Part shown: one piece after another, positions 1 to 56,323 of the stretch
Numbering within the stretch: the first letter of the stretch is position 1
How the letters are laid out: every line of letters starts with the position of its first letter
Assembly (NCBI RefSeq): GCF_963921235.1
Contig: NC_086097.1
Coordinates: 82,648,001 to 82,712,000, forward strand
From: Mobula hypostoma
Taxonomy: Eukaryota
Length of the DNA: 64,000 nucleotides
Reading direction: 5' to 3'
Position numbers and translations under genes: made by a program
Notes under the pieces: model-generated
Told to the model about the DNA's origin: nothing
What the model saw: the letters and a program-made list of their open reading frames with translations, nothing else
Databases searched by the model: none

Positions 1-180
1 CATAAAAGGAAACAAAGAGCACCTTTGCAGCAATATCCAAAATTTTTAAACAAGAGCAACAATTAAAAGTCATGGATAACACTTTCTCTGCTGGCAGAAA
101 TGGGTAATTGCTCATCAATTATCTTATAAATTCTGTTTTCAGTTAATTTTACATAACTTTGGAGTCTCACATTAAACCAC

Positions 181-5030: not shown

Positions 5031-7091
5031 ATAATGGTGATATAAGAAGGCAGCTGGCCACCAGCTGAACAATCATTGATAGACAGTGAAGTGATCTCTC
5101 CATCCCCTTTGGATGTGGGGATTGTTGACAAAGTCAGAATTTATCTTCCATTCCAGTCTGCTTGACTACCAGCCATGCTGCTTCACAATTCAGTGAAGTG
5201 TCAAACACAGTGCTGCAAGTATGAATGGTGAGTTACAGGACATAACGAAATTGGATTTCACTAACAGTTCATGATGGTGTTGCTAATACTTATTCCTTAT
5301 TTACTTCCATTGTTATTTGATCAACTGAGTTAATAGTCCCAGCTGACACAAGCCAATTGAACTTGTGTCTCTAACTCAGTAGTCCCAAGTCTGAATACTA
5401 ATCTGGTCATCACTGAAGTCAATTTAAATGGTGAAAAGTAAAATTAGTTTTGTTTTACTGAAAATGGTACATGTTCTCATAAAGACCTTATGAATGGCAG
5501 GTGAGGTACATAATCAGTTAATCTGTTTTGTTTTGGAGAACTTTCGGTTACACACTGAGTATCCACTCCTAATATTGGAACATTATTAGAATGGACATTC
5601 TTTCAGCTAGAAACAGAAAATAGCAGCAGGGAACAGAAAAATGAGATGTCTACATCTTTGCAGAGTTATTCTACTAGTCAGTAATTGAACACAGGCTAAT
5701 TATAAAGGACCTGAGAGAAGTGGAAGAACAATCATTCAGGATTCTGTTGCTTAAGCTTCCTCGTAAGGGACTTGTATTGTTGGTGCAGGTGGTTAATCAG
5801 TGTATGGTGCTTGGATCAAAAGGCAAAGCAAAACAGAAATAGCTTGCTGCCTTTGTTTCATTGAAATAAAGAATAGGGGAAGCCTACAACAATGGAGTAC
5901 GCGGTTTCAATTGTGTTTAAACCACAAAGGTTTGCAAATAGCACACTTAGGGGTGTATCACCATCTGTAACGAGTAATTAATATAAATTTTACTCTTTGA
6001 AAGAACTCTTGTATAGAGTAACAAATTGTTTTCAATGATTCACATTCTCGGGACAAGTGACACATTTTATACTTACCATGGTGTCATTGCATGGTCACAT
6101 TAAGTCTATCTGAGGCCAGATGGCACTAACTTTTTAAGCTTTGAACTTTCCTTGACTGGTGAACATTTCTTTCCTTCTAGTGATGAATAATAATAATGCA
6201 AATGCTTAGATGTAGCCCAATGTCACCTTTGCAATCTTGTTTGAAATTTGCATCCTTCACTCAATAAAAGTATTTTTCCACTGTCCACACTGGGATTAAG
6301 TCAATGTGAAGGTGTTGTGCACATTTTCATGGTGGTGTTGTGGAGCCACTTAGCTTCTAGTGTTTTGTCAAGTGTATTGTTGACAAAAAGGTTGGAAAAA
6401 GAATATTCACTGAGAATCAGGAAGTGTTCAGTTCCATTCTTAATTCCTCATGTAATGTAGTAGCTCATGTCTGTATACAGCAAGAATTAGACACAGAATT
6501 GGAATAAGATATAACAAGTAACCATTGGTGCCACTCAGCTGACATGTTATGATCATGTTAACCCAAAATGAGTCAAAGCTCATTACAGTGTCATTTAAAG
6601 TCATTACCGTAGCAAACAGTTGGTTTTACTGCAAGTAAAACCAATTTTGTTCAGTCAACAGACCACATAATGAGCAGAAGATAGATACTGCTACTATTCA
6701 TAGTAAAAGCTGGATAGTTTCTGCTTGGAAATATAGTGAGGAAAGGATAGTTTGTACACATAAGTTGCTCATAACCCTTTTGACTTGGGGTCTATACTGA
6801 GTTATTCTTGGCTGGTGAGCAGTGGTTTAAGAATCTCAGGGGGAGGAGGGGAAAATATTAATCAAGTTTCCCACTTCTGTAGGTTCAGATATGAAGATCA
6901 GATACACTGTAAATGTTAGGTGCTCCCATAGGTCTATATATTAGTGTTAGGAATCCTTCATGAAAGTAATGAAGAAGCTGGATGAAAGAAAAAGAACACG
7001 AGGAATTCTGCAGATGCTGGAAATTCAAGCAACACACATCAAAGTTGCTGGTGAACGCAGCAGCCCAGGCAGTATCTCTAGGAAGAGGTAC

Positions 7092-7127
7092 AGTTGACGT
7101 TTCGGGCTGAGACTATTCATCAGGACT
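7092..7127 (-). ncRNA. Degenerate minimal hammerhead ribozyme
   Basis: Reverse complement AGTC-CTGATGA-ATAGTCTCAGCCC-GAAA-CGTC-AACT; core intact, stems I and II mismatched. Confidence 0.55.
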
Positions 7128-7513
7128 AACTGAAGGAAGAGCTAGTAAGAGATTTGAAAGGGGGAGGGGGAGATCCAAAATGATAGGAGAAGACAGGAGG
7201 GGGAGGGATGGAGCCAAGAGCTGGACAGGTGATTGGCAAAAGGAATATGAGAGGATCATGGGACAGGAGGCCCAGGGAGAAGGAAAAGGGGGGGGGGAAC
7301 CCAGAGGATGGGCAAGGGGTATAGTCAGAGGGACAGAGGGAGAAAAAGGAGAGAGAGAAAGAATGTGTGTATATAAATAAATAACAGATGGGGTACGAGG
7401 GGGAGGTGGGGCATTAGCGGAAGTTAGAGAAGTCAGTGTTCATGCCATCAGGTTGGAGGCTACCCAGACGGAATATAAGGTGTTGTTCCTCCACCCTGAG
7501 TGTGGCTTCATCT

Positions 7514-7649
7514 TTACAGTAGAGGAGGCCGTGGATAGACATATCAGAATGGGTACAGTAGAGGAGGCTGTGTTTAGACATATCAGAATGGGTTACAGTA
7601 GAGGAGGCCGTGGATAGACATATCAGAATGGGTTACAGTAGAGGAGGCC
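7514..7649 (+). repeat. ~40-bp tandem repeat, 3.4 copies, between the PLE arms
   Basis: Unit TTACAGTAGAGGAGGCCGTGGATAGACATATCAGAATGGG starting at 7514, 7554, 7593 and partially at 7633. Confidence 0.95.
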
Positions 7650-7944
7650 ACCTCCCCCTCGTACTCCATCCGTTATTTACTTATATACACACATTCTTTC
7701 TCTCTCTCTCCTTTTTCTCCCTCTGTCCCTCTGACTATACCCCTTGCCCATCCTCTGGGTTTTTTTCCCCCCTCCCCCTTTTCCTTCTCCCTGGGCCTCC
7801 TGTCCCATGATCCTCTCATATCCCTTTTGCCTATCACCTGTCCAGCTCTCGGCTCTATCCCTCCCCCTCCTGTCTTCTCCTATCATTTTGGATCTCCCCC
7901 TCCCCCTCCAGCTTTCGAATCCCTTACTCACTCTTCCTTCAGTT

Positions 7945-7980
7945 AGTCCTGATGAAGGGTCTCGGCCTGAAACGTCGACT
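7945..7980 (+). ncRNA. Minimal type I hammerhead ribozyme motif
   Basis: AGTC-CTGATGA-AGG(GTCTCGG)CCT-GAAA-CGTC-GACT: both core boxes, stem I AGTC/GACT, stem II, palindromic ACGT in place of stem III; predicted cleavage after GUC at 7976. Confidence 0.8.
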
Positions 7981-8295
7981 GCACCTCTTCCTAGAGATGC
8001 TGCCTGGCCTGCTGCGTTCACCAGCAACTTTGATATGTGTTGCTTGAAAGAAAAAGAAGTCTGTTTGCGGTATGTAAATTTTTGAGGTATTTTACATGGT
8101 TGTTTTCTGAAAAAGAACCCAGAAGTAAACCACCTTCATTCCGAATTACATCTATCTAAGTTATGAATGAGTTTTATTTGTAGCTGAACTGTGCTTGTTT
8201 AAATCTGGTTTATTGCGGGTTAGCTATCATTATTGAAAAGGAATTGGACTTTGAATAATTTGTTAATAATTTGATATAATTTAAAATTTTATACC

Positions 8296-10734: not shown

Positions 10735-13503
10735 CAGAGACTTGGATGGCTCAGGGGCAGGAATGGTTATTTAGAGTGCCAGCTTTAGATGTCTCAGCAA
10801 GGATAAGGAGGGAGGCAAAGAGGTGGGGGCGTGGCACTGTTGATCAGAGATAATATCACGGCTGCAGAAAAGGAGGAAGTTATGGAGGGATTGTCTACGG
10901 AGTCTCTGTGGGTGGAAATTAGAAACAGGAAAGGGTCAATAAATCTACTGGGTGTTTTTTATAGACCACTCAATAGTAACAGGGACATCGAGGAGCAGAT
11001 AGGGAGACAGATTCTGGGAAGGTGTAATAATAACAGGGTTGTCATGGTTGGAGATTTTAATTTTCCAAATATTGATTGGCATCTCCCTAGAGCAAGGGGT
11101 TTAGAAGAGGTGCAGTTTGTTAGGTGTGTTCAGGAAAGTTTCCTGACACAATATGTAGATAAGCCTACAAGAGAAGAGGCTGTACTTGATCTGGTATTTA
11201 GAAGTGAACCTGGTCAGGTGTCAGGTCTCTGTGGGAGAGAATTTTGGAGATAGTGGTCACAATTCTATCTCCTTTACCATAGCATTGGAGAGGGATAGGA
11301 ACAGACAAGTTAGGAAAACATTTAATTGGAGTAAGGGGAAATATGAAGCTATCAGCCAGGAACTTGGAAGCATAAATTTGGAATAGATGTTCTCAGGGAA
11401 ATTTACAGCAGAAATGTGGCAAATGTTCAGCGTATAATTGGGTGGTGTTCTGCATAGGTACGTTCCAGTGAGACAGGAAAAGGATGGTAGGGTACAGGAA
11501 CTATAGTGTAAAAAGGCTGTTGAAAATTCTAGTCAAGAAGAAAAGAAAATCATACGAAAGGTTCAAAAAACTAGGTAATGATAGAGATCTAGAAGATTAT
11601 AAGGCTATCAGGAAGGAGCTTAAGAATGAAATTAGGAGAGCCAGAAGGGGCCATGAGAAGGCCTTGGCGAATGGGATTAAAGAAAACCCCAAGGCACTCT
11701 ACAAGTATGTGGAGAGCAAGAGGATAAGACGTGAGAGAATTGGACCAATCAAGTGGAGAAGTGTATATGGAACCGAAGGAGATAGCAGAGGTACTTAATG
11801 AATACATTGCTTCAGTGTTCACTACAGAAAAGGATCTCAGCATTTATAGGAATGACTGACAGTGGATTGACAAGCTTGAGCATATAGACATTAAGAAAGA
11901 GGATGTGCTGGAGCTTTTGGAAAGCATCAAGTTGGATAAGTCTCCTGGACTGGACAAGATGTATCCCAGGCTACTGTGGGAGGTGAGGGAAGAGATTGCT
12001 GAGCCTCTGGCAATGATCTTTGCATCATCAGTGGGGAGAGGGGAGGTTCCGGAGGACTGGAGGGTTGCAGATGTTGTTCCCTTATTCAAGAAAGGGAGTA
12101 GAAATAGCCCAGGAAATTATAGACTAGTGAGTCTTATTTCAGTAGTTGGTAAGTTAATGGAGAAAATCCTAACAGGCAGGATTTATGAACATTTGGAGAG
12201 GGATAATATGATTATGAATAGTCAGCATGGCTTTGTCAAAGGCAGATTGCGCCTTACGAGCCCGATTGAATTTTTTTGAGGATGTGACCAAACAGGTTGA
12301 AGAAGGTAGAGCAGTAGATGTAGTGTATATGGATTTCAGCAAGGCATTTGATAAGGTACCCCATGCCAGGCTTATTGAGAAAGTAAGGAGCCAAGGAATC
12401 CAAGGGGACACTGCTTTGTGGATCCAGAACTGGCGTGCCCACAGAAGGCAAAGAGTGGTTGTAGAGAGGTCATATTCTGCATGGAGATCAGTCACCAGTG
12501 GTGTGCCTCAGGGATCTGTTCTGGGACCCCTACTCTTTGTGATTTTTATTAATGATCTGGATGAAGAAGTGGAGGAATGGGTTAGTAAATTTGCTGATGA
12601 CACAAAAGTTGGGGGTGTTGTGGATAATGTGGAGGGCTGTCAGAGGTTACAGCAGGACATTGATAAGGATGCAAAACTGGGCTGAGAAGTGGCAGATGGA
12701 GTTCAACCCAGTTAAGTGTGAGGTGGTTCATTTTGGTAGGTCAAATATGATGGCAGAATGTAGTATTAATGGTAAGACTCTTGACAGTGTGGAGGATCAG
12801 AGGGATTTTGGGGTCTGAGACCATAGGACACTCAAAGCTGCTGCGCAGGTTGACTCTGTGGTTAAGAAGGCATACAGTGCATTGGTCTTCATCAACCGTG
12901 GGATTGAGTTTAAGAGCCGAGAGGTAATGTTGCAGCTATATAGGACCCTGGTCAGACCCCACTTGGAGTACTGTGCTCAGTTCTGGTCACCTCACTGCAG
13001 GAAGGATGTGGAAACTACAGAAAGGGTGGAGAGGAGATTTACAAGGATGTTGCCTGGATTGGGGAGCATGCCCTATGAGAATAGGTTGAGTGAACTCAGC
13101 CTTTTCTCCTTGGAGTGACAGAGGATGAGAGGTGACCTGATAGAGGTGTACAACGTAATGAGAGGCATTGATCATGTGGATAGTCAGAGGCTTTTTCCCA
13201 GGGCTGAAATGGCTAACACAAGAGGACACAGTTTTAACGTGCTTGGAAGTAGGTACAGAGGAGATGTCAGGGGTAAGTTTTTACGCAGAGAGTGGTGAGT
13301 GTGTGGAATGGGCTTCTGGTGATGGTGGTGGAGGCAGATACGATAGAATCTTTTAAGAGACTCCTGGATATGTACATGGAGCTTAAAAAAATAGAGGGCT
13401 ATGGGTAACCCTAGGTAATTTCTAAAGTAAGTACATGTTTGACACAACGTTGTGTGCTGAAGGTCCTGTATTGTGCTGTAGTTTTTCTATATTTCTATGT
13501 TTC
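10735..13503 (+). mobile_element. CR1 LINE, near-complete ORF2 (APE endonuclease + RT), frameshifted
   Basis: [70 protein letters not shown]-type tail. Confidence 0.96.
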
Positions 13504-17973: not shown

Positions 17974-20509
17974 AAGAAATACTCAAATGCTAAAATAGTA
18001 CAACCATGGCTGACAAGGGAAGTCAAAGCTAATGTAAAAGCAAAAGAGAAGGCATACAACAAAGCAAAAATGAGCAGAAAGATAGATTGGGAAGCTTTTA
18101 TGAATCTACAGAAAGCAACTAAAATAATCATCAGGAGGGAAAAGATGGCATATGAAAGCAAGCTAGCAAAAAACATCAAGGTGGATAGAAAAAGCTTTTT
18201 CAAGTATATAAAAAAACAAGAGAGGTGAGAGTGAATATAGGACAGCTAGAAAATAAGGCCGAGAGAAATAATAACTGGGGACAAGGAGATGGCAGATGAA
18301 CTAAATGAGTATTTTGCACTAGTCTTCACTGTGGAAGACACTAGCAGTGTGCCAAGTGTTGAAGGGTGTGAGGGAAGAGAAGTGACTGCAGTTACTATTA
18401 CAGGGGGATGATGCTCAAAAAGCTGAAAGACCTAAAGGTGCATAAATCACCCGGACCAGATTAACTTCACCCTAGGGTTTTGAAAACAGTAGCTCTAGAG
18501 ATTGTGGAGGTATTAAAAATTATTTTTCAAGAATCATTGTACTCTGGCATGGTTCTTGAGGACTGGAAAATTGCAGTTACTCCATTCTTTAAGAAAGAAG
18601 GGAGGTAGCATAAAGGAATTTATAGTTCAGTTAGCCTGACTGTGGTTGAGCAGATGTTGGAGTCGACTGTAAAGGATGAGGTTATGGAGTACTTGGTGAC
18701 CCAGAACAAGATAGGACAAAGTCAGCATGATTTCGTTAAGGAAAAATCTTGCCTGACAATCTTGCCTATTGGAATTCTTTGAGGAGATTACAAGCAGGAT
18801 AGATAAAGGGGATGCATTGGATGTTGTATATTTAGATTTTCAGAAGGCCTTTGACAAGGAGCCACACATGAGTCTGCTTACCAACCTAAGAGCCCTTGGC
18901 ATTACCAGAAAGTTCCTGGCATGGGTAGAGCATTGGCTAACTGGTAGGAGGTAGTGAGTGGGAATAAAATGATCCTTTTCTGGTGCTGCCTGTGAATAGC
19001 GGTGTTCTGCAAGGGTCGACGTTGGGACCACTTCTTTTTGTGGTGTATATCAATGATTTAGATGATGGAATAGATAGATGGCTTTGTTGCCAAGCTTGCA
19101 GATGATATGAAAATTGGTCGAGGGACAGGTAGTGTTGAGGAAACAGGAAGGTTGCAGAAGGGCCTAAACAGATTAGGACAATGGGCAAGAAAGTGGCAAA
19201 TGAAATACAATGTTGGAAAATGCATGGTCATACACTTTGGTGGAAGAACTAAATGTGCAGACTATTTTCTCAGCAGGGAGAAAATCCAAAAATCTGAGAC
19301 GCAAAGGAACTTGGGAGTCCTTGTGCAGAACACCCTAAAGGTTAACTTACAGGTTGAGTCGGTGGTGAGGATGGCAAATGTAGTGTTAGCATTCATTTCA
19401 AGAGGCCTAGAATACAAGAGCAAGGATGTGATGCTGAGGCTTTATAAGGCTCTAGTGAGGCCTCACCTTGAGTATTGTGTACAGTTTTGGGCTCCTCATC
19501 TAAGAAAAGCTGTGCTGGCATTGGAGAGGGTTCAGAGGAGGTTCACAAGGATGATTCTTGCAATGAAAGGGTTATCATTTGAGAAAAGTTTGATGGCTCT
19601 GGGTGTGTACTCACTGGAACTAGAATGATGGGGGGGGATCTCATTGAAACCTTTCGAATGTTGAAAGCGCTAGACAGAGTAGAAGTGAAAAGGATGATGA
19701 GGGATAGGACAACTGGGCACAGCCTCAGGATAGAGGGGCGTCCTTTTTAAACAGTGGTATGGAGAAATTTCTTTAGCCAGAGGGTGGTGAATTTGTGGAA
19801 TTTGTTACCACGGCAGCTATGGAGGCCAGGTCATTGGGCATATTTAAGGTGGAGATTGATAGGTTCTTGATTGATCACGGCATCAATAGCTATGGGGAGA
19901 AGGCCAGGGAGTGCGGTTGAGGAGGGGAAAAAGGATCAGCCATGACTGAATGGCGGATCAATCTCGATGGGCTAAATGGCCTAATTCTGCTCCTATGTCT
20001 TATGGTCTAAGATGAACTTCAGTTCTATAAAGTGCTATGCCAAGGTCCTACTTTGTTGTACCCTTCCATACTTTGAAGTCTTTGGTGGTAAAAGAAATAC
20101 CACCATTTAAAAAAAATCTAGAACTTTATGTAATTTGTCAATCCTGTCAGGTATTTGTGGTTCATTTCAACATTCACCTCACTTGACCCATTTTAGAATG
20201 CTGTGGCCATTTCATTTCCTGTGAATTACAAATATTGAATCCACACAGTATTATGGTAATCCTGCTCTGAAAAAGATTTGGCTCCCCTTGCAAGGCTGGT
20301 AATTTTCTGCATGTTTTTTGAATATCCTTGTATACGTCATAACCAGTCATTGAATTCAGAACAATGGAATGTTATCCATGTCTGCAGTAAGAGGAAATCA
20401 GAAAGTTCAACAAAAAGAATGGAAGTGTAAACATGGAAAAAAATTTGTCTCATTTCCAGAAGATGTATATAATTTAAATAAAAAAGCATTCTCAAGCCAC
20501 ATAGCTTTA

Positions 20510-21211
20510 CGAGGGATGATTGATAAGTTCGTGTCCTAAGGTAGAAGGAGTCAATTTTAGAAAACCTAGCACATCTATTTTTCAACATAGTCCCCTCCTA
20601 CATTTACACATTTAGTCCAGCGGCCATGGAGCATACGGATCCCTTCTTTGTAGAAGTCCGCGTCTTGGACCTCCAAGAAGTGGTCCACAGCCGGGGTGAT
20701 TGATAAGTTTGTGGCCTAAGGTAGACGGAGATGAGTTATACAGCTCTCATTACATGCAAGTGCAGTTCAACTCTTTGAGTGATTATGCAGAAAGTTTGAA
20801 GTTAATAACTCATCTCCTTCTACTTTAGGCCACAAACTTATCAATCACCCCTGCTGTGGACCACTTTCTGGAGGTCCAAGATGCCGACTTCTACAAAGAA
20901 AGGATCCATATGCTCCATGACCACTGGACTAAGTGTGCAAATGCAGGAGGCGACTATGTTGAAAAATAAATGTGCTAGGTTTTCTAAAATTGATTCCTTC
21001 TACCTTAGGCCACGAACTTATCAATCACCCCTGCTGTGGACCACTTTCTGGAGGTCCAAGACGCCGACTTCTACAAAAACGGGATCCGTATGCTCCACGA
21101 CTGCTGGACTAAGTGTGTAAATGTAGGAGGGGACTATGTTGAAAAATAAATGTGCTAGGTTTTCTAAAATTGAATCCTACCTTAGGCCACAAACTTATCA
21201 ATCACCCCTCG
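20510..21211. mobile_element. Mariner-derived fold-back non-autonomous element with five TIR copies
   Basis: TA-flanked CGAGGGATGATTGATAAGTT...AACTTATCAATCACCCCTCG; 180-bp units encode the mariner C-terminus (DFYKNGIRMLHDCWTKCVNVGGDYVEK*). Confidence 0.9.
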
Positions 21212-37243: not shown

Positions 37244-40200
37244 TATGAGAGTAGGAATGCGATGAGGTGGAGGATAAATGCGTGGCTGAGGGATTGGAGC
37301 AGGGGGCAGGGATTCAAGTTTTTGGATCATTGGGACCTCTTTTGGCGCAGGCGTGACCTGTACAAAAAGGACGGGTTACACTTGAATCCTAGGGGGACCA
37401 ATATCCTGGCAGGGAGATTAAAGTCACCTCAGTAGCCCCCGCTAAACTAGAATGGTTGGGGGGTGGGAATCAAATTAAAGAGGCTAGGCGTGAGGAGGTT
37501 AGTTCACAACAGAGGGATGGGAACCAGTGCAGAGAGACAGAGGGGTGTAAAGTGAGGGTAGAAGCAAAAAGTACTAAGGAGAAAAGTGAAAGTGGCAGGC
37601 CGACAAATCCAGGGCAAGCATTAAAAAGGGCCACTTTTCAACATAATTGTATAAGGGCTAAGAGAGTTGTAAAAGAGCGCCTGAAGGCTTTGTGTGTCAA
37701 TGCAAGGAGCATTCGTAATAAGGTGGATGAATTGAAAGTGCAGATTGTTATTAATGATTATGATATAGTTGGGATCACAGAGACATGGCTCCAGGGTGAC
37801 CAAGGATGGGAGCTCAACGTTCAGGGATATTCAATATTCAGGAGGGATAGACATGAAGGAAGGGGAGGTGGGGTGGCGTTGCTGGTTAAAGAAGAGATTA
37901 ACGCAATAGAAAGGAAGGACATAAGCCAGGAAGATGTGGAATCGATATGGGTAGAGCTGTGTAACACTAAGGGGCAGAAGACGCTGGTGGGAGTTGTGTA
38001 CAGGCCACCTAACAGTAGTAGTGAGGTTGGAGATGGTATTAAACAGGAAATTAGAAATGTGTGCAATAAAGGAACAGCAGTTATAATAGGTGACTTCAAT
38101 CTACATGTAGATTGGGTGAACCAAATTGGTAAAGGTGCTGAGGAAGAGGATTTCTTGGAATGTATGCAGGATGGTTTTTTGAACCAACATGTCGAGGAAC
38201 CAACTAGAGAGCAGGCTATTCTGGACTGGGTTTTGAGCAATGAGGAAGGGTTAATTAGCAATCTTGTCGTGAGAGGCCCCTTGGGTAAAAGTGACCATAA
38301 TATGGTGGAATTCTTCATTAAGATGGAGAGTGACATAGTTAATTCAGAAACAAAGGTTCTGAACTTAAAGAAGGGTAACTTTGAAGGTATGAGACGTGAA
38401 TTAGCTAAGATAGACTGGCAAATGACACTTAAAGGATTGACGGTGGATATGCAATGGCAAGCATTTAAAGGTTGCATGGATGAACTACAACAATTGTTCA
38501 TCCCAGTTTGGCAAAAGAATAAATCAAGGAAGGTAGTGCACCCGTGACTGACAAGAGAAATTAGGGATAGTATCAATTCCTAAGAAGAAGCATACAAATT
38601 AGCCAGAGAAAGTGGCTCACCTGAGGACTGGGAGAAATTCAGAGTTCAGCAGAGGAGGACAAAGGGCTTAATTAGGAAGGGGAAAAAAGATTATGAGAGA
38701 AAACTGGCAGGGAACATAAAAACTGACTGTAAAAGCTTTTATAGATATGTAAAAAGGAAAAGACTAGTAAAGACAAATGTAGGTCCCCTACAGACAGAAA
38801 CAGGTGAATTGATTATGGGGAGCAAGGACATGGCAGACCAATTGAATAACTACTTTGGTTCTGTCTTCACTAAGGAGGACATAAATAATCTTCCAGAAAT
38901 AGTAGGGGACAGAGGGTCCAGTGAGATGGAGGAACTGAGCGAAATACATGTTAGTAGGGAAGTAGTGTTAGGTAAATTGAAGGGATTGAAGGCAGATAAA
39001 TCCCCAGGGCCAGATGGTCTGCATCCTAGAGTGCTTAAGGAAGTAGCCCAAGAAATAGTGGATGCATTAGTGATAATTTTTCAAAACTCGTTAGATTCTG
39101 GACTAGTTCCTGAGGATTGGAGGGCGGCTAATGTAACCCCACTTTTTAAAAAAGCAGGGAGAGAGAAACCGGGGAATTATAGACCGGTTAGCCCAACGTC
39201 GGTGGTGGGGAAACTGCTGGAGTCAGTTATCAAAGATGTGATAACAGCACATTTGGAAAGCGGTGAAATGATCGGACAAAGTCAGCATGGATTTGTGAAA
39301 GGAAAATCATGTCTGATGAATCTCATATAATTTTTTGAGGATGTAACTAGTAGAGTGGATAGGGGAGAACCAGTGGATGTGGTATATTTGGATTTTCAAA
39401 AGGCTTTTGACAAGGTCCCACACAGGAGATTAGTGTGCAAACTTAAAGCACACGGTATTGGGGGTAAGGTATTGATGTGGATGGACAATTGGTTAGCAGA
39501 CAGGAAGCAAAGAGTGGGAATAAATGGGACCTTTTCAGAATGGCAGGCGGTGACTAGTGGGGTACCGCAAGGCTCAGTGCTGGGACCCCAGTTGTTTACA
39601 ATATATATTAATGACTTGGATGAGGGAATTAAATGCAGCATCTCCAAGTTTGCAGATGACACGAAGCTGGGTGGCAGTGTTAGCAGTGAGGAGGATGCTA
39701 AGAGGGATGCAGGGTGACTTGGATAGGTTGGGTGAGTGGGCAAACTCATGGCAGATGCAATTTAATGTGGATAAATGTGAAGTTATCCACTTTGGTGGCA
39801 AAAATAGGAAAACAGATTATTATCTGAATGGTGGCCGATTAGGAAAAGGGGAGGTGCAACGAGACCTGGGTGTCATTATACACCAGTCATTGAAAGTGGG
39901 CATGCAGGTACAGCAGGCGGTGAAAAAGGCGAACGGTATGCTGGCATTTATAGCGAGAGGATTCGAGTACAGGAGCAGGGAGGTACTACTGCAGTTGTAC
40001 AAGGCCTTGGTGAGACCACACCTGGAGTATTGTGTGCAGTTTTGGTCCCCTAATCTGAGGAAAGACATCTTTGCCATAGAGGGAGTACAAAGAAGGTTCA
40101 CCAGATTGATTCCTGGGATGGCAGGTCTTTCATATGAAGAAAGACTGGATGAACTGGGCTTGTACTCGTTGGAATTTAGAAGATTGAGGGGGGATCTGAT

Positions 40201-40586
40201 TGAAACGTATAAGATCCTAAAGGGATTGGACAGGCTAGATGCGGGAAGATTGTTCCCGATGTTGGGAAGGTCCAGAACGAGGGGTCACAGTTTGAGGATA
40301 GAGGGGAAGCCTTTTAGGACCGAGATTAGGAAAAACTTCTTCACACAGAGAGTGGTGAATCTGTGGAATTCTCTGCCACAGCAAACTGTTGAGGCCAGTT
40401 CATTGGCTATGTTTAAGAGGGAGTTAGATATGGCCCTTGTGGCTACGGGGATCAGGGGGTATGGAGGGAAGGCAAGAGCGGGGCTCTGAGTTGGATGATT
40501 AGCCATGATCATAATAAATGGCGATGCAGTCTCAAAGGGCCGAATGGCCTACTCCTGCACCTATTTTCTATGTTTCTATGTTTCTA
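37244..40586 (+). mobile_element. Youngest CR1: ORF1 3' end + complete ORF2 with few lesions
   Basis: [49 protein letters not shown]. Stops at 38545, 38581 and 39328; +1 frameshift near 39705; (TTTCTATG)n tail. Confidence 0.97.
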
Positions 40587-42710
40587 TTCCATTTCTGGGG
40601 TTTTACACACAGTATTAGTTTCCTTATTTAAGAATGTCAATACATCTGACACAATTTGAAGGAAGTTTACTAAGTTAATGACTGGAATGAGTGGGCTGCA
40701 CTCTGAAGAAGGATTCAACAAGTGAAGTTTGTTTTTGGTGAACTGAAATGAATGGACCATTTGTGGATAGCATGAAGTGGGGCAATGAATGGAAAATATC
40801 TGAACTGCAGCATGTTTCTGAACTCTACATAGGTGTGGGAGTCAGGAAATCTTGACATACTCGTGTATTTTAATAGAAGAACAAATTATTGACCCAGTAA
40901 TGATGTCATAATCGTAACTACAATGAAAGAAAGCTCGTTTATGCATACTTTATTTGCAGTGGAGTGCAAATTTTAAAATCGGTCAATATGAAACAGCTAC
41001 ATTTTTATATTGACTATGAGTTCTTACTCAAGTCTTGACAGTCAAAGCCTCTGTATTGCATTTACTTCTTAAGATCCATATTAGTAATTGAAGCTTCTTT
41101 GCTGACTGATAATGACTATGGCACTTCATCCCAGCCGTTTTAACATTTACCAGCAGCTGTTTGAAGCAAAGGCCAACTGATCACTCCCAGCCAACACCCA
41201 AACCCTCCTCCTGGTGATATTAATGTGAATGTTACTTCGTGGGTCATCGCAGCAGTGACACACACATTCGCATACTACACACACGCACACAAAAGGCACG
41301 GGCAGAGGATTTTACAGCCACTGGAAACATTGGGAAGGAATATTTTACAATTTTCATCTATTAAATGTATGTAATTCAAATTTCTTCATTAATTATGAGA
41401 GCATTGTTGTTTTAGTTACTTATTTGTTTCAATTAATTGATTTTAGAAAGCATGAACCTGTGCATAGTGAAGTTCACCAGTCTGACTTGGTGAAATTTAG
41501 ATGTTATAGCTTCAGCAAATTTAAGTTTATGTCTTAATGTATTTCTTCCCTTTCATTTGGTTGTATTGTCTGTTACCTTTTAGTTTCAACTGCATTGCAA
41601 GCTAGCTGTTGACTGAGAAGGTGGTTAGTTAACTTCTGTCTTTTCCCATTGCTAACGTTTAAATGGCTGCCAGTGTATATGTGACAATGACGTAAGTTAG
41701 CTCAACGCTTACGCATTCTTTCTGATCTTAACCAGAACATTTTGTTTCTGCTTGTGACCTGTGCCAGATGGCTGTTTAAGCTTGTGGCCATATTTTCCCC
41801 TGTATAGCATTGTCTATTCATGTGCCCAGATGTAATGCTTGGAGACATCGAGGGTTTTAAAAGTATCAGCATTTTTATGTTCAACCTTCTGTTCAAGTTT
41901 ATAATATTTGGAGTATAGTTAACCATAGCACAATTAGCACTGACTTTCAGGATTTTACTGACCTATAAAGAATTCGGGCAATATTTATGCAGAATTTAAC
42001 AAGAAAAAGGCTAAACTTGGATGCAGTCTAGTTGTATCACAAATTACATTAATTTTTGGAAGCATTTTACTTCTCATGTTTACTGTTTACCCTTTGCTCT
42101 GTTTGTTTAATACCTCTTTAAATGATTATATCAAAAAATGGTGATGCAGAACAATTAAAAATTTAGGATTACTCGCAGTGCGAAACTGAGTGGAAATTTG
42201 GTGTGAACAGGAAAGAGGTGTTGCCTTTAGCCTGTGCTGCTAAGATGGCTTAGGTAAACTTGAGACAGTCAAAGTTTTTATTTTGGCACTTACTGCAGTC
42301 GAAATGAATGGCCGTAATCTTGATCTATGAACATATTTTCTGTATTAGACTGCAGTAGTTTGGAGATTGTGGCAATTGAGTCTGTCCATAATGCATATGT
42401 TTATAGTTGATAATCCTGCCTTGAATATTTCTTGCAGTGTTACTGAGTTGGAATTGGTGCTGGGGGGGGGGGGTGTCAGGGGGTGGTGGAGATGCACCTT
42501 GACCCCAGACCTTGTAGAGAAATACAAGATCAGGATTGATAGACCAACAATGCGCAAAGTGAGATAGGTACTGCGGATACACAGTAGGAAGGGGCTTGCT
42601 CATATGGCAGTTTTCTGTGATTTAACAGTTAATATCCTTTGTAAATAGGGTCAAGAATCTTACATAACATATTGCTCATCAGATGTCTGGGTAAGAAAAA
42701 TCTCAAACCA

Positions 42711-42863
42711 ACACACATAAAAAACGTTGGTGAACGCAGCAGGCCAGGCAGCATCTATAGGAAGAGGTACAGTCGACGTCTCGGCCTGAAATGTTCACCA
42801 GCATTTTTTTATGTGTGTTGCTTGAAATTCCAGCATGTGCAGATTTCCTCGTGTTAGCGTTTT
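42711..42863 (+). mobile_element. Collapsed palindromic Penelope-like remnant
   Basis: Same arm sequence as 49364-49594 with the centre deleted; flanks AAAAATCTCAAACCA (42696-42710) and AAAAATCTTGAACCA (42864-42878). Confidence 0.8.
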
Positions 42864-48770: not shown

Positions 48771-49366
48771 ATAACCTTGATCTCCAGAAAGCAGATGGTT
48801 CAATATACCTGGCACTGGCAAGGCATCTACATGGAATGAGGCGGTGAAAGTCTCCTCCAGCTGTTGTGATAATTTATGAAGCGAGCTGTGTGATCTTGAT
48901 CCAGTGCCTGATGTACTTGGATAAATAATGTGTCACGATATTAAACTGACATCTTAGTATAAAAACAGCGGAGGCTGTTATGGAATTGAGGACAGGTGCA
49001 GAAAAATGTTATATCCTGAAGCTGGAATTGAAAACAATAGTTGATCCAAAATAAATGGCACTTCATTTGAATTGGTGTAAAACGTAACTTTCATGACGTG
49101 ACACAACAAGTGAAATGCGGGAGGTGGGATGGTGATGGTGGGGAAGGGTGAAGATTTGAGAATGGGATCGGAGCAGCATTACAGGTTGGTCGTGGAGGGT
49201 AGAAGGGGTGAATTACTAATTCCCATTCGCGTGTATATATCAAACGTCATTTCCATGAGTGTTCATAGCATCTTATGTCATACAAAGAATCAAATGAGCT
49301 CTGTAGAATTAGCACAGTAAATGACAAGAAGGCTATTTGATGCAAAACGTCATGTCTATTATCTCA

Positions 49367-49594
49367 AGCAACATACATCAAAGTTGCTGGTGAACGCAGC
49401 AGGCCAAGCAGCATCTATAGGAAGAGGCGCAGTCGACGTTTCAGGCCGAAACCCTTCGTCAGTCCTGACGAAGGGTTTCGGCCTGAAACGTCGACTGCGC
49501 CTCTTCCTATAGATGCTGCTTGGCCTGCTGCGTTCACCAGCAACTTTGATGTATGTTGCTTGAATTTCCAGCATCTGCAGAATTCCTGTTGTTT
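49367..49594 (+). mobile_element. Miniature palindromic Penelope-like insertion (perfect 99-bp arms)
   Basis: 49364-49462 is the exact reverse complement of 49465-49563, with a 2-nt spacer; ~31-nt one-sided tail; TSD ATGTCTATTATCTCA at 49352-49366 and 49595-49609. Confidence 0.92.
49460..49497 (+). ncRNA. Minimal type I hammerhead ribozyme motif
   Basis: CAGTC-CTGACGA-AGG(GTTTCGG)CCT-GAAA-CGTC-GACTG; 5-bp stem I; predicted cleavage after C49492. Confidence 0.8.
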
Positions 49595-50794
49595 ATGTCT
49601 ATTATCTCACTGTATTTGTACTGACATGAAGAATCTGTGATATATTTATAAGCCATGAAATTTGGCTTTGTAGTGCCAATTGTTTAAATGCTCCGGAAGT
49701 TGATATCCTTTGGATATTTTGAACAAGGTACGGAGACACAACATGTTTGCTGCCAGTTGCTTGACTGCTAAGAGTGGTATCACTGGCAGTGCTTATATAA
49801 ACCAAAGCTATGCAGGGCAGGCAGATCATGATTGCAATGCTTGTACAATGCTAATTTGATTCCAGCATTGCCAAAACTGGATATAAGCAGCAGTTCTCAT
49901 GCCATTTGTTCAAATGACACAGAGATCCCAACGGTTAGCAGTGACAAGCTAGACCCCACCCCACCCCACCTCCCCCACCCTCCAGCACCATCTATCCATA
50001 GAAACACTATTTAAAGAACTTTCAGTTATGTGTAGGCGACGATTGAAATGTAGAAGTGGTTGTCAAGTGCCACCGGTTTTTGTTTGCAGACGTTGTCAAT
50101 TTTCGGGAACTGTGTCAAAGGCTTAATTTAATCCTGACATATTAGGCTTCCTCTAAACCTTGTTACTTCCAGCCGTAGAGTGCTTGGTGATACATTTCCT
50201 TGGGTTATGTATGACGACAGTGAGTGAGAAGAGCACCCAAAGAGTAGGGTAACCTGTTAGGAGGAAGAAGATGGAGAGAATCGGCCTTAAGCAGATCCAA
50301 TCAACCAGAAGAAGAAAAGGAAGAGCATTCCTGCCATGAACACCTTTCCGAAGGAGCAGCTCTCAGTGGACATGTTGATTGGCATGCACCGTGTTCTTTC
50401 CACAAAAACCCACGCTACGTTGATAGGGCGCTCCCTTCTGCTCCTTGCCGTTGTACATGCAGTTCCAGGCAGGTCCGTCAATGGGTCCAACATTTTGTTT
50501 TATATGCACCTCTGTTCTCTTTGTCAGCTGCCCTACCAGAGTCCTCATTTAGGTACTCGTTTGAAGACCAGTGCATCCTCATCCTCTGGAAACAATTCAG
50601 AAACAATTCCTTCCCTTCTGCCATCAGATTTCTAATATTCATTGAGCATTACTCCATTCTTCCATTTTTTTTGCATTATTTGTTTTGTCATTTATAGTGG
50701 GATTTTTCTTTGTGTCTTTGCACTGTACTGCTGCCACAAAGCACCAAATTTCATGCCCTACAAGAATATGATAACACATCTGATTCTGAGTCTG

Positions 50795-55915: not shown

Positions 55916-56323
55916 GATGTGATTGTTCTGCTCTTAAGAGTGAGTGTAGTGGGTGCAAGGATAGGAGTTAAAGTTTTCCATTCCAAAGAGTATAAAAGAA
56001 ATGAAATTACGTTGTACTTCATAAATCTTCGATGGTGTCCAGCTTTGTGTGCCAAAGGTAGGATGTGAAGTGCTTGGGGGTAGTTCAAGGGAAATTTACC
56101 AGAATGGAATCAAGATGAGGGACTTCAGCAAAAAGATATGATAAGTTGGAATCATTCTCCATTGAACAAAGAATATTTATGTGAGATTTAGTTGGGGAAT
56201 ACATAATTCAGAGTTCTGGTAGACTAAGTAGTGATAATCTATTTGATCTGGTTAGTAATCAATGCATGCAGGTTTATACATGCTGCCTGGCCTGCTGCGT
56301 TCACCAGCAATTTTTATGTTTGT

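What the first reader, a model, noticed from the sequence alone, without database searches (positions are those of the whole stretch)
49352..49609. Perfect 99-bp hairpin mini-element with a hammerhead ribozyme at its apex
Seen: two exactly complementary 99-bp arms with a 2-nt spacer, a ~31-nt one-sided tail, a 15-bp TSD and no coding remnant. The symmetry axis falls in stem I of a hammerhead motif (CAGTC-CTGACGA..GAAA-CGTC-GACTG). The + strand therefore has a complete ribozyme, while the - strand has core, stem II and cleavage triplet but lacks the 5' strand of stem I. Known: Penelope-like terminal repeats carry minimal hammerheads thought to act as dimers through a palindromic stem III. Inferred: either a non-autonomous ribozyme-bearing retroelement or the collapse product of a longer inverted insertion. 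Read-through RNA would form long dsRNA that competes with ribozyme folding.
Basis: partly seen in the sequence, partly recalled or inferred. Interest (0 to 1): 0.75.

Follow-up and report, generated by a model that had tools for sequence, protein, structure and literature searches.

The report
Mirror-image stub of a Penelope retrotransposon
This 231-base hairpin is one of about two thousand similar mirror-image stubs of a very abundant Penelope-type jumping gene; each likely forms afresh when both cut DNA strands copy the end of the element's RNA and stop at the front edge of its ribozyme motif, so it is probably a by-product of insertion and not a self-copying mini-element.

Summary
Head-to-head truncated copies with tail and TSD are known PLE anatomy. 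It is not one self-copying family: the TC junction is 224 of 2,087 short junctions, its tail lies on either arm (11:17), and its copies carry nine variant patterns, seven shared with long copies. Outer ends fall at two fixed sites. Inner ends pile up 3-4 nt before the ribozyme core (7-8% per base, against about 0.14% further upstream), also in non-inverted copies; the predicted cut site shows only a small excess. Best reading: both target strands prime cDNA on one RNA, both stop at the helix I edge (RNA start or a block, undecided) and join by microhomology. Cleavage, expression and RNA start are untested. The scan noted the same pattern before in other shark-like genomes.

The parts
49352..49366 (+). 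Left target-site duplication, 15 nt; its last 3 nt also match the end of the short arm (microhomology)
49364..49462 (-). Short arm: 5'-truncated inverted copy of the pLTR 3' end, parent positions 0 to +98 (0 = C3 of the hammerhead core); lacks the 5' strand of helix I
49461..49464 (+). Junction: AG shared by both arms (2-nt microhomology) plus TC spacer = parent -4 to -1, the family's 5'-end hot spot
49460..49497 (+). Minimal type I hammerhead motif: helix I 5' strand 49460-49464, core 49465-49471, helix II 49472-49484, GAAAC 49485-49489, GTC 49490-49492, predicted cut 49492/49493, helix I 3' strand 49493-49497; activity untested
   Evidence: motif definition PMC4209133
49465..49563 (+). Long arm, parent 0 to +98; a rare T at +12 is present in both arms (49477 and mirror 49450)
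49564..49594 (+). 31-nt PLE tail, parent +99 to +129; in tandem copies it runs on into the 5' end of the ORF
49595..49609 (+). Right target-site duplication, 15 nt

Best explanation
This is a 231-nt insertion made of two head-to-head, 5'-truncated copies of the pLTR 3' end of an endonuclease-bearing Penelope-like retrotransposon, likely built at the insertion site itself by twin priming. Inferred steps: the element's enzyme nicks both target strands about 15 nt apart (TSD); each 3' end primes cDNA on the same RNA, or on RNA of the same source copy, one at the start site near +95 and one near +130 (the difference is the tail); both cDNAs stop at about -4, the first base of hammerhead helix I; their 3' ends pair through the AG/CT microhomology around the central dinucleotide, are extended on each other, and repair leaves TC or GA at the axis. 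I think the stop is most likely the 5' end of the RNA (a strong-stop-like run-off from the RNA's first pLTR; about 50%), otherwise a block at the ribozyme or at a splice-acceptor-like site (about 40%). The stub is likely dead: it ends at the RT start site and lacks the downstream RNA.
For: Shown: parent identity (2 mismatches in 132 nt; ORF). 3' ends bimodal in 100 arms: 48 at +88..103, 48 at +128..145. In 28 clean hairpins of 73 examined, short ends 85-99, tail ends 123-139, TSD 12-16. TC junction 224 of 2,087 junctions with spacer 0-30; 6 of the first 50, next classes 4 and 4. Real tail on the TC arm in 11 and on the other arm in 17 of 30 (two have no tail; by longer arm 12:18, p=0.36 against 1:1). 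Arms of one copy share the 5-site variant pattern in 15 of 19, against 19% for random pairs; 7 of 9 patterns occur among 89 long copies. Inner ends: 30 of 100 at -4; genome-wide 8.4% at -3, at least 7.0% at -4, 2.9% at -5 against 21 events in 14,978 nt further upstream. Non-inverted copies show the same hot spot (17 in 1,284 nt against 17 in 12,372; TSD-abutting examples). Literature: the Anolis PLE protein cuts and extends both target strands and starts at two internal RNA sites that bound the tail (PMC11167929).
Against: No biochemistry on this family; the Anolis protein belongs to another clade (Poseidon). No cap-G excess before AGTC (A 34, G 28, C 22 of 84 truncations read by eye), so the RNA-start reading has no direct support. 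Ends also occur at -11 to -30 (16 of 100 arms, partly mis-aligned inverted copies). The computed duplex of two cDNA ends is weak, about -4 kcal/mol, and ViennaRNA prefers another register. 24 of 50 junctions carry inserted bases instead of microhomology. Identity of the two arms could also come from one arm copying the other or from later conversion. Samples come from the start of contigs C1 and C2, not at random from the genome; the -20..+7 window was chosen after seeing the data; genome counts include point mutations and a sister family (16 of the first 100 listed).
Confidence: 0.7

Rival explanations
1. Self-priming: one antisense strand (RNA or cDNA) ending near -4 folds back and copies itself; the hairpin is then resolved or joined to the target.
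For: Proposed for PLE head-to-head junctions with palindromes (PMC3846280 Discussion). Explains identical arms, including the rare T at +12 in both arms of this copy.
Against: For a target-primed cDNA the copied arm cannot be longer than the first one, so the arm bearing the spacer should bear the tail; it does in only 11 of 28 tailed TC copies, and the arm reaching further upstream is the tailed one in 18, the short one in 22, equal in 7 of 47. Short-arm ends match the 3' ends of solo copies. No stable hairpin forms at the cDNA end (-0.6 kcal/mol). A free hairpin cut asymmetrically by the endonuclease is not excluded by these tests.
Confidence: 0.13
2. Non-autonomous hairpin mini-element that retrotransposes as a unit.
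For: 224 exact copies of the junction; the 30 best whole-length matches all have TC with the tail on the TC arm and distinct TSDs, but they were chosen for likeness to the query.
Against: Both orientations, nine variant patterns in 19 copies, seven shared with long copies, a continuum of other junctions, and no sequence downstream of the RT start site, which the Anolis protein needs (PMC11167929). Some secondary copying is not excluded.
Confidence: 0.06
3. Collapse after insertion: a longer inverted insertion lost its centre by cruciform or microhomology-mediated deletion.
For: Longer inverted copies are common (spacers 8 to 2,100 nt among the first 100 places; window 6995-8048); junctions show microhomology.
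Against: Non-inverted copies with clean TSDs end at the same place, so the hot spot does not need an inverted repeat; deletion towards a perfect 99-bp hairpin with a 2-nt loop makes the repeat less stable, not more (general knowledge).
Confidence: 0.08
4. Assembly fold-back artefact.
For: Perfect inverted repeats can arise in long-read data (general knowledge); raw reads of this locus were not seen.
Against: 15-nt TSD, one-sided tail, 224 dispersed junction copies; opposite-strand joints in this element appear in contigs of other public runs.
Confidence: 0.02

Closest known systems
Insertions of EN+ Penelope-like elements with an inverted 5'-truncated copy and a 30-40-bp tail (PMC8557442 text and Fig. 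2 legend; Adineta vaga Pen2a, PMC3846280; D. virilis Penelope, PMC2377424)
   Same: Head-to-head arrangement, one-sided 31-nt tail, one TSD around the whole unit, palindrome at the junction, hammerhead in the pLTR.
   Different: Extremely short, no ORF remnant; junction sits at a family-wide 5'-end hot spot at helix I, which I did not find described in the papers and passages read.
Poseidon of Anolis carolinensis in vitro (PMC11167929)
   Same: Two internal RT start sites bounding the tail; both target strands cut and extended; ribozyme cut site is not the main RNA end.
   Different: Parent here has the CX4CX2C linker (Neptune/Nematis type) and its first ATG lies downstream of the tail; that paper does not report joined inverted products or stops at helix I in the parts read.
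Minimal hammerheads of metazoan PLEs (PMC4209133)
   Same: Type I motif without helix III loop, palindromic C15.2-G16.2, short helix I; dual motifs on opposite strands 100-700 bp apart were already noted there.
   Different: Helix II is short and ends in U, not the conserved C11.1, in 248 of 281 sites (C in 26).
Animal non-LTR retrozymes (10.64898/2026.07.22.740005; PMC7229834 listing only)
   Same: Non-coding, hammerhead-bearing, derived from PLE pLTRs.
   Different: Retrozymes are head-to-tail tandem arrays of units; this is one head-to-head pair with only one complete motif.

Membership tests
EN+ Penelope-like element (parent and its insertion) | Single ORF with RT and C-terminal GIY-YIG endonuclease | tested here: met
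   Parent L134: 1016 aa from ATG, Pfam RVT_1 E 2.6e-5 and GIY-YIG E 0.001, both below the curated cut-offs; 1,284 homologues at E<=1e-30, many with both domains. The stub itself has no ORF.
EN+ Penelope-like element (parent and its insertion) | Cysteines between GIY and YIG (CCHH motif) | tested here: met
   Read from the translation; definition PMC8557442.
EN+ Penelope-like element (parent and its insertion) | pLTRs formed by partial tandems | tested here: met
   Hammerhead cores 3,514 bp apart around the ORF in L134; tail runs into the body in 7 of 30 tail-anchored loci over 1.5 kb.
EN+ Penelope-like element (parent and its insertion) | Inverted 5'-truncated copy at the 5' end, 30-40-bp tail on one side, variable TSD | tested here: met
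   (tails 27-45, TSD 12-16 in 28 clean copies).
Neptune clade | CX2-5CxxC motif in the RT-EN linker (shared with Nematis) | tested here: met
   CX4CX2C before the endonuclease (definition).
Neptune clade | RT groups with named Neptune references | not tested
   No named Neptune or Nematis reference proteins were on hand; clade call is by motif only.
Minimal PLE hammerhead | Core CUGANGA / GAAA / NUH, helix I, palindromic 15.2-16.2 | tested here: met
   plus strand.
Minimal PLE hammerhead | Conserved G10.1-C11.1 pair | tested here: not met
   U before GAAA here and in 248 of 281 sites; G-U or A-U closure possible.
Minimal PLE hammerhead | Self-cleavage, as a dimer | not testable with these tools
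   Only an indirect hint: small excess of 5' ends at the predicted cut.
Non-autonomous self-copying mini-element | One junction orientation and shared diagnostic variants apart from long copies | tested here: not met
Non-LTR retrozyme | Head-to-tail tandem units, each with a complete hammerhead | tested here: not met
MITE / fold-back DNA transposon | Terminal inverted repeats reaching both ends, fixed TSD, transposase partner (recalled) | tested here: not met
   One-sided tail, variable ends and TSDs, retroelement parent.

The most novel reading that the evidence does not exclude
The RNA of this PLE begins at the first base of hammerhead helix I. Because RT starts internally about 100 and 135 nt downstream, the enzyme makes a strong-stop-like cDNA from the RNA's own 5' end on each target strand; two such cDNAs joined give the hairpin, and longer copies need read-through RNA or a template jump. 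The stubs would then be a genomic record of the transcription start, of both RT start sites and, in a small minority, of ribozyme cleavage in the germ line.
Probability: 0.35. Interest if true: 0.65.

Novelty: new member of a known kind. Interest (0 to 1): 0.4.

Why it matters
The locus itself is an ordinary dead PLE stub. Its value is as one of thousands of fossil reaction products: how PLEs make their inverted ends and what their hammerheads do are open questions (PMC8557442, PMC11167929). The counts favour twin priming over the published self-priming idea, place the dominant cDNA stop at the front of the ribozyme and not at its cut site, and give predictions that the existing in vitro PLE system can test directly.

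Tried and rejected
Rfam: nothing at gathering score, only generic hairpin hits at E<=10. Spliced-exon explanation of the -2/-4 ends (an acceptor-like AG precedes helix I, as the intron end does in D. virilis): rejected as the main cause, because in 9 of 30 loci the TSD lies 0-6 nt from AGTC or overlaps it, one more abuts it, and no shared upstream exon appears in the 100 listed contexts; five non-inverted family copies had no TSD within 1.5 kb, and one TSD 690 nt upstream belongs, by eye, to an inverted partner arm. No intron-like joint at this site among the joints shown (15 of 30, 15 of 225). Cap-G signature: none. Expression: no RNA holder listed; all runs were contigs, which cannot show starts or editing. 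Pfam found nothing in another long-frame copy whose RT core looks out of frame. PMC5785218 was not held. Covariation in helix I could not be assessed: almost all sites fetched are one family.

Full report
Observation. The element spans 49364-49594 between 15-nt duplications; the left one overlaps the short arm by 3 nt. Positions below are counted from C3 of the hammerhead core (0 = 49465 on the plus strand; predicted cut between +27 and +28).

What it derives from. The window lies in a 3.48-Gb genome; the closest named homologue of the parent's RT region is from a bamboo shark, 72%, so the host is probably a cartilaginous fish (inference). A 35-nt core motif has 14,724 exact matches, a 31-nt motif further 3' has 63,448. 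In long copies the sequence before the core is a pyrimidine tract ending in TTAGTC, not the mirror arm. The tail runs on into an element body in tandem copies. Locus L134 is a natural full-length copy: pLTR, an open frame of 1016 aa from ATG with RT, a CX4CX2C linker and a GIY-YIG domain, pLTR, period 3,514 bp. The window's long arm plus tail differs from its pLTR at 2 of 132 nt. So both arms are the 3' end of an EN+ PLE, Neptune-like by motif only. The window holds two more head-to-head insertions of the family with other junctions, and a fragment.

Is it a family of its own? The first search seemed to say so: the 30 best matches share the junction, but they were ranked by likeness to the query. 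Unselected counts differ. The junction has 224 exact copies among 2,087 junctions with 0-30 nt between the two cores. In the first 50 of these it is the commonest class (6), followed by classes of 4, 4, 2, 2, 2 and 30 singletons; 34 have a TSD, 27 of them 13-14 nt; two of the 50 belong to a sister family. Among the first 30 TC copies, which include this one, a real tail lies on the TC arm in 11 and on the other arm in 17; two have none. In the 19 with both arms long enough to score, the arms share a 5-site variant pattern in 15 (random pairs 19%); nine patterns occur, seven of them also among 89 long copies. The junction therefore arose many times from different source copies, and both arms of a copy come from one source.

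Where the ends fall. In 100 arms anchored at +57 (first 4.1 Mb of C1), 3' ends are bimodal: 48 at +88..103, 48 at +128..145, 4 elsewhere. 5' ends pile up at -20..+7: 34 events in 1,816 nt at risk against 21 in 14,978 nt at -61..-620; for arms flagged non-inverted 17 in 1,284 against 17 in 12,372 (window chosen afterwards, flag heuristic, 16 arms censored). Of 30 non-inverted-flagged short copies, 12 end at -2..-5 (a few are inverted on inspection). In the 50 junctions 30 of 100 arm ends are at -4 (microhomology counts towards this). Genome-wide, the match to the parent ends at -3 in 6,133, at -4 in at least 4,660, at -5 in 1,798, and continues in 60,287, that is 8.4%, 7.0% and 2.9%; chance one-base extension from -4 could account for the -5 class. 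These counts include point mutations and a sister family (7 and 9 of the first 100, by eye). Contigs of other runs show loose ends at -2 to -4 as well, which reflects the same genomic truncations. At the predicted cut site, 81 matches have a purine before +28; by eye 28 are point variants, 53 truncations, 15 of which are explained by GACT microhomology with the partner arm; the one control position (+29) has 15 (p=4e-6 or 0.002). This is a weak hint of a minor cleaved template, far smaller than the -3/-4 peak, with one control and unequal base classes.

Mechanism. Shown: two fixed outer ends, tail on either side of the spacer, one source for both arms, a sharp inner stop shared with solo copies. 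From the literature: the Anolis PLE protein cuts and extends both target strands and starts at two internal RNA sites that bound the tail; ribozyme mutants do not alter insertion (PMC11167929, parts 1-2 of 4 read). Inferred: twin priming, stop at about -4, joining of the two cDNA ends by AG/CT pairing around the central dinucleotide, which can resolve to TC or GA. This fits the 11:17 split, whereas fold-back of a single target-primed cDNA would put the tail on the TC arm every time. The self-priming idea in print (PMC3846280, passages and Discussion read) survives only in a form where a free hairpin is cut asymmetrically. The cause of the stop is open. TTAGTCC matches the initiator consensus YYANWYY with A at -4 (consensus recalled, not from a call), and PLE promoters lie in the pLTR (PMC2377424, passages), but there is no cap-G excess, and in D. 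virilis the start lies about 120 nt before helix I with an intron ending there. A block by the folded ribozyme or by factors on the acceptor-like site is nearly as likely.

Comparison with what is known. Inverted truncated copy, 30-40-bp tail and TSD are standard for EN+ PLEs (PMC8557442, passages); minimal hammerheads, also as opposite-strand pairs, are described (PMC4209133, parts 1-2 of 4; review PMC6765202, passages). It is not a retrozyme (10.64898/2026.07.22.740005, part 1 and passages) or a MITE. I found no description of a 5'-end hot spot at helix I in nine paper searches and the passages read, including PMC6431247; the library lacks most subscription papers, PMC5785218 was not held, and no supplements were read, so Repbase-type or supplementary descriptions may exist. 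The scan's own notes, opened after my reading was recorded, report the same pattern in other shark-like genomes; they are unchecked and are not counted as evidence.

Verdict. Real, well explained as a PLE insertion by-product; new member of a known kind. Interest 0.4, carried by the family-wide end statistics, not by this locus.

Noticed in passing
window 6995-8048: Older head-to-head insertion of the same family, arms -437..+128 and -294..+99, 14-nt TSD, with short duplicated pieces at the junction.
   Followed up: partly
window 42700-42861 and 56275-56323: A short head-to-head copy whose junction lies downstream of the ribozyme core, 8-nt candidate TSD, and a solo fragment.
   Followed up: partly
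window 20508-21209: Unrelated repeat with about 220-nt inverted arms and a tandem third copy; not identified.
   Followed up: no
L134:2236-5364 (-): Natural full-length PLE copy with an uninterrupted 1043-codon frame; family looks recently active (copies 94-99% alike).
   Followed up: yes
L134:5762 and L174: Possible second 5'-end cluster near -297..-339, at the end of the ORF; a contig in two runs joins -4 to -311.
   Followed up: no
G000 matches: Many copies truncated at the predicted cut site have an extra GA just before it, like re-copying at a template end.
   Followed up: no
L268, L276, L288, L293: Sister hammerhead-bearing families with the same helix I and core but different flanks.
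   Followed up: no
window 12218-12685, 19074-19628, 37393-40489: CR1-type LINE fragments (named by recall of their RT and endonuclease motifs); no host gene frame of 150 aa or more was evident.
   Followed up: partly
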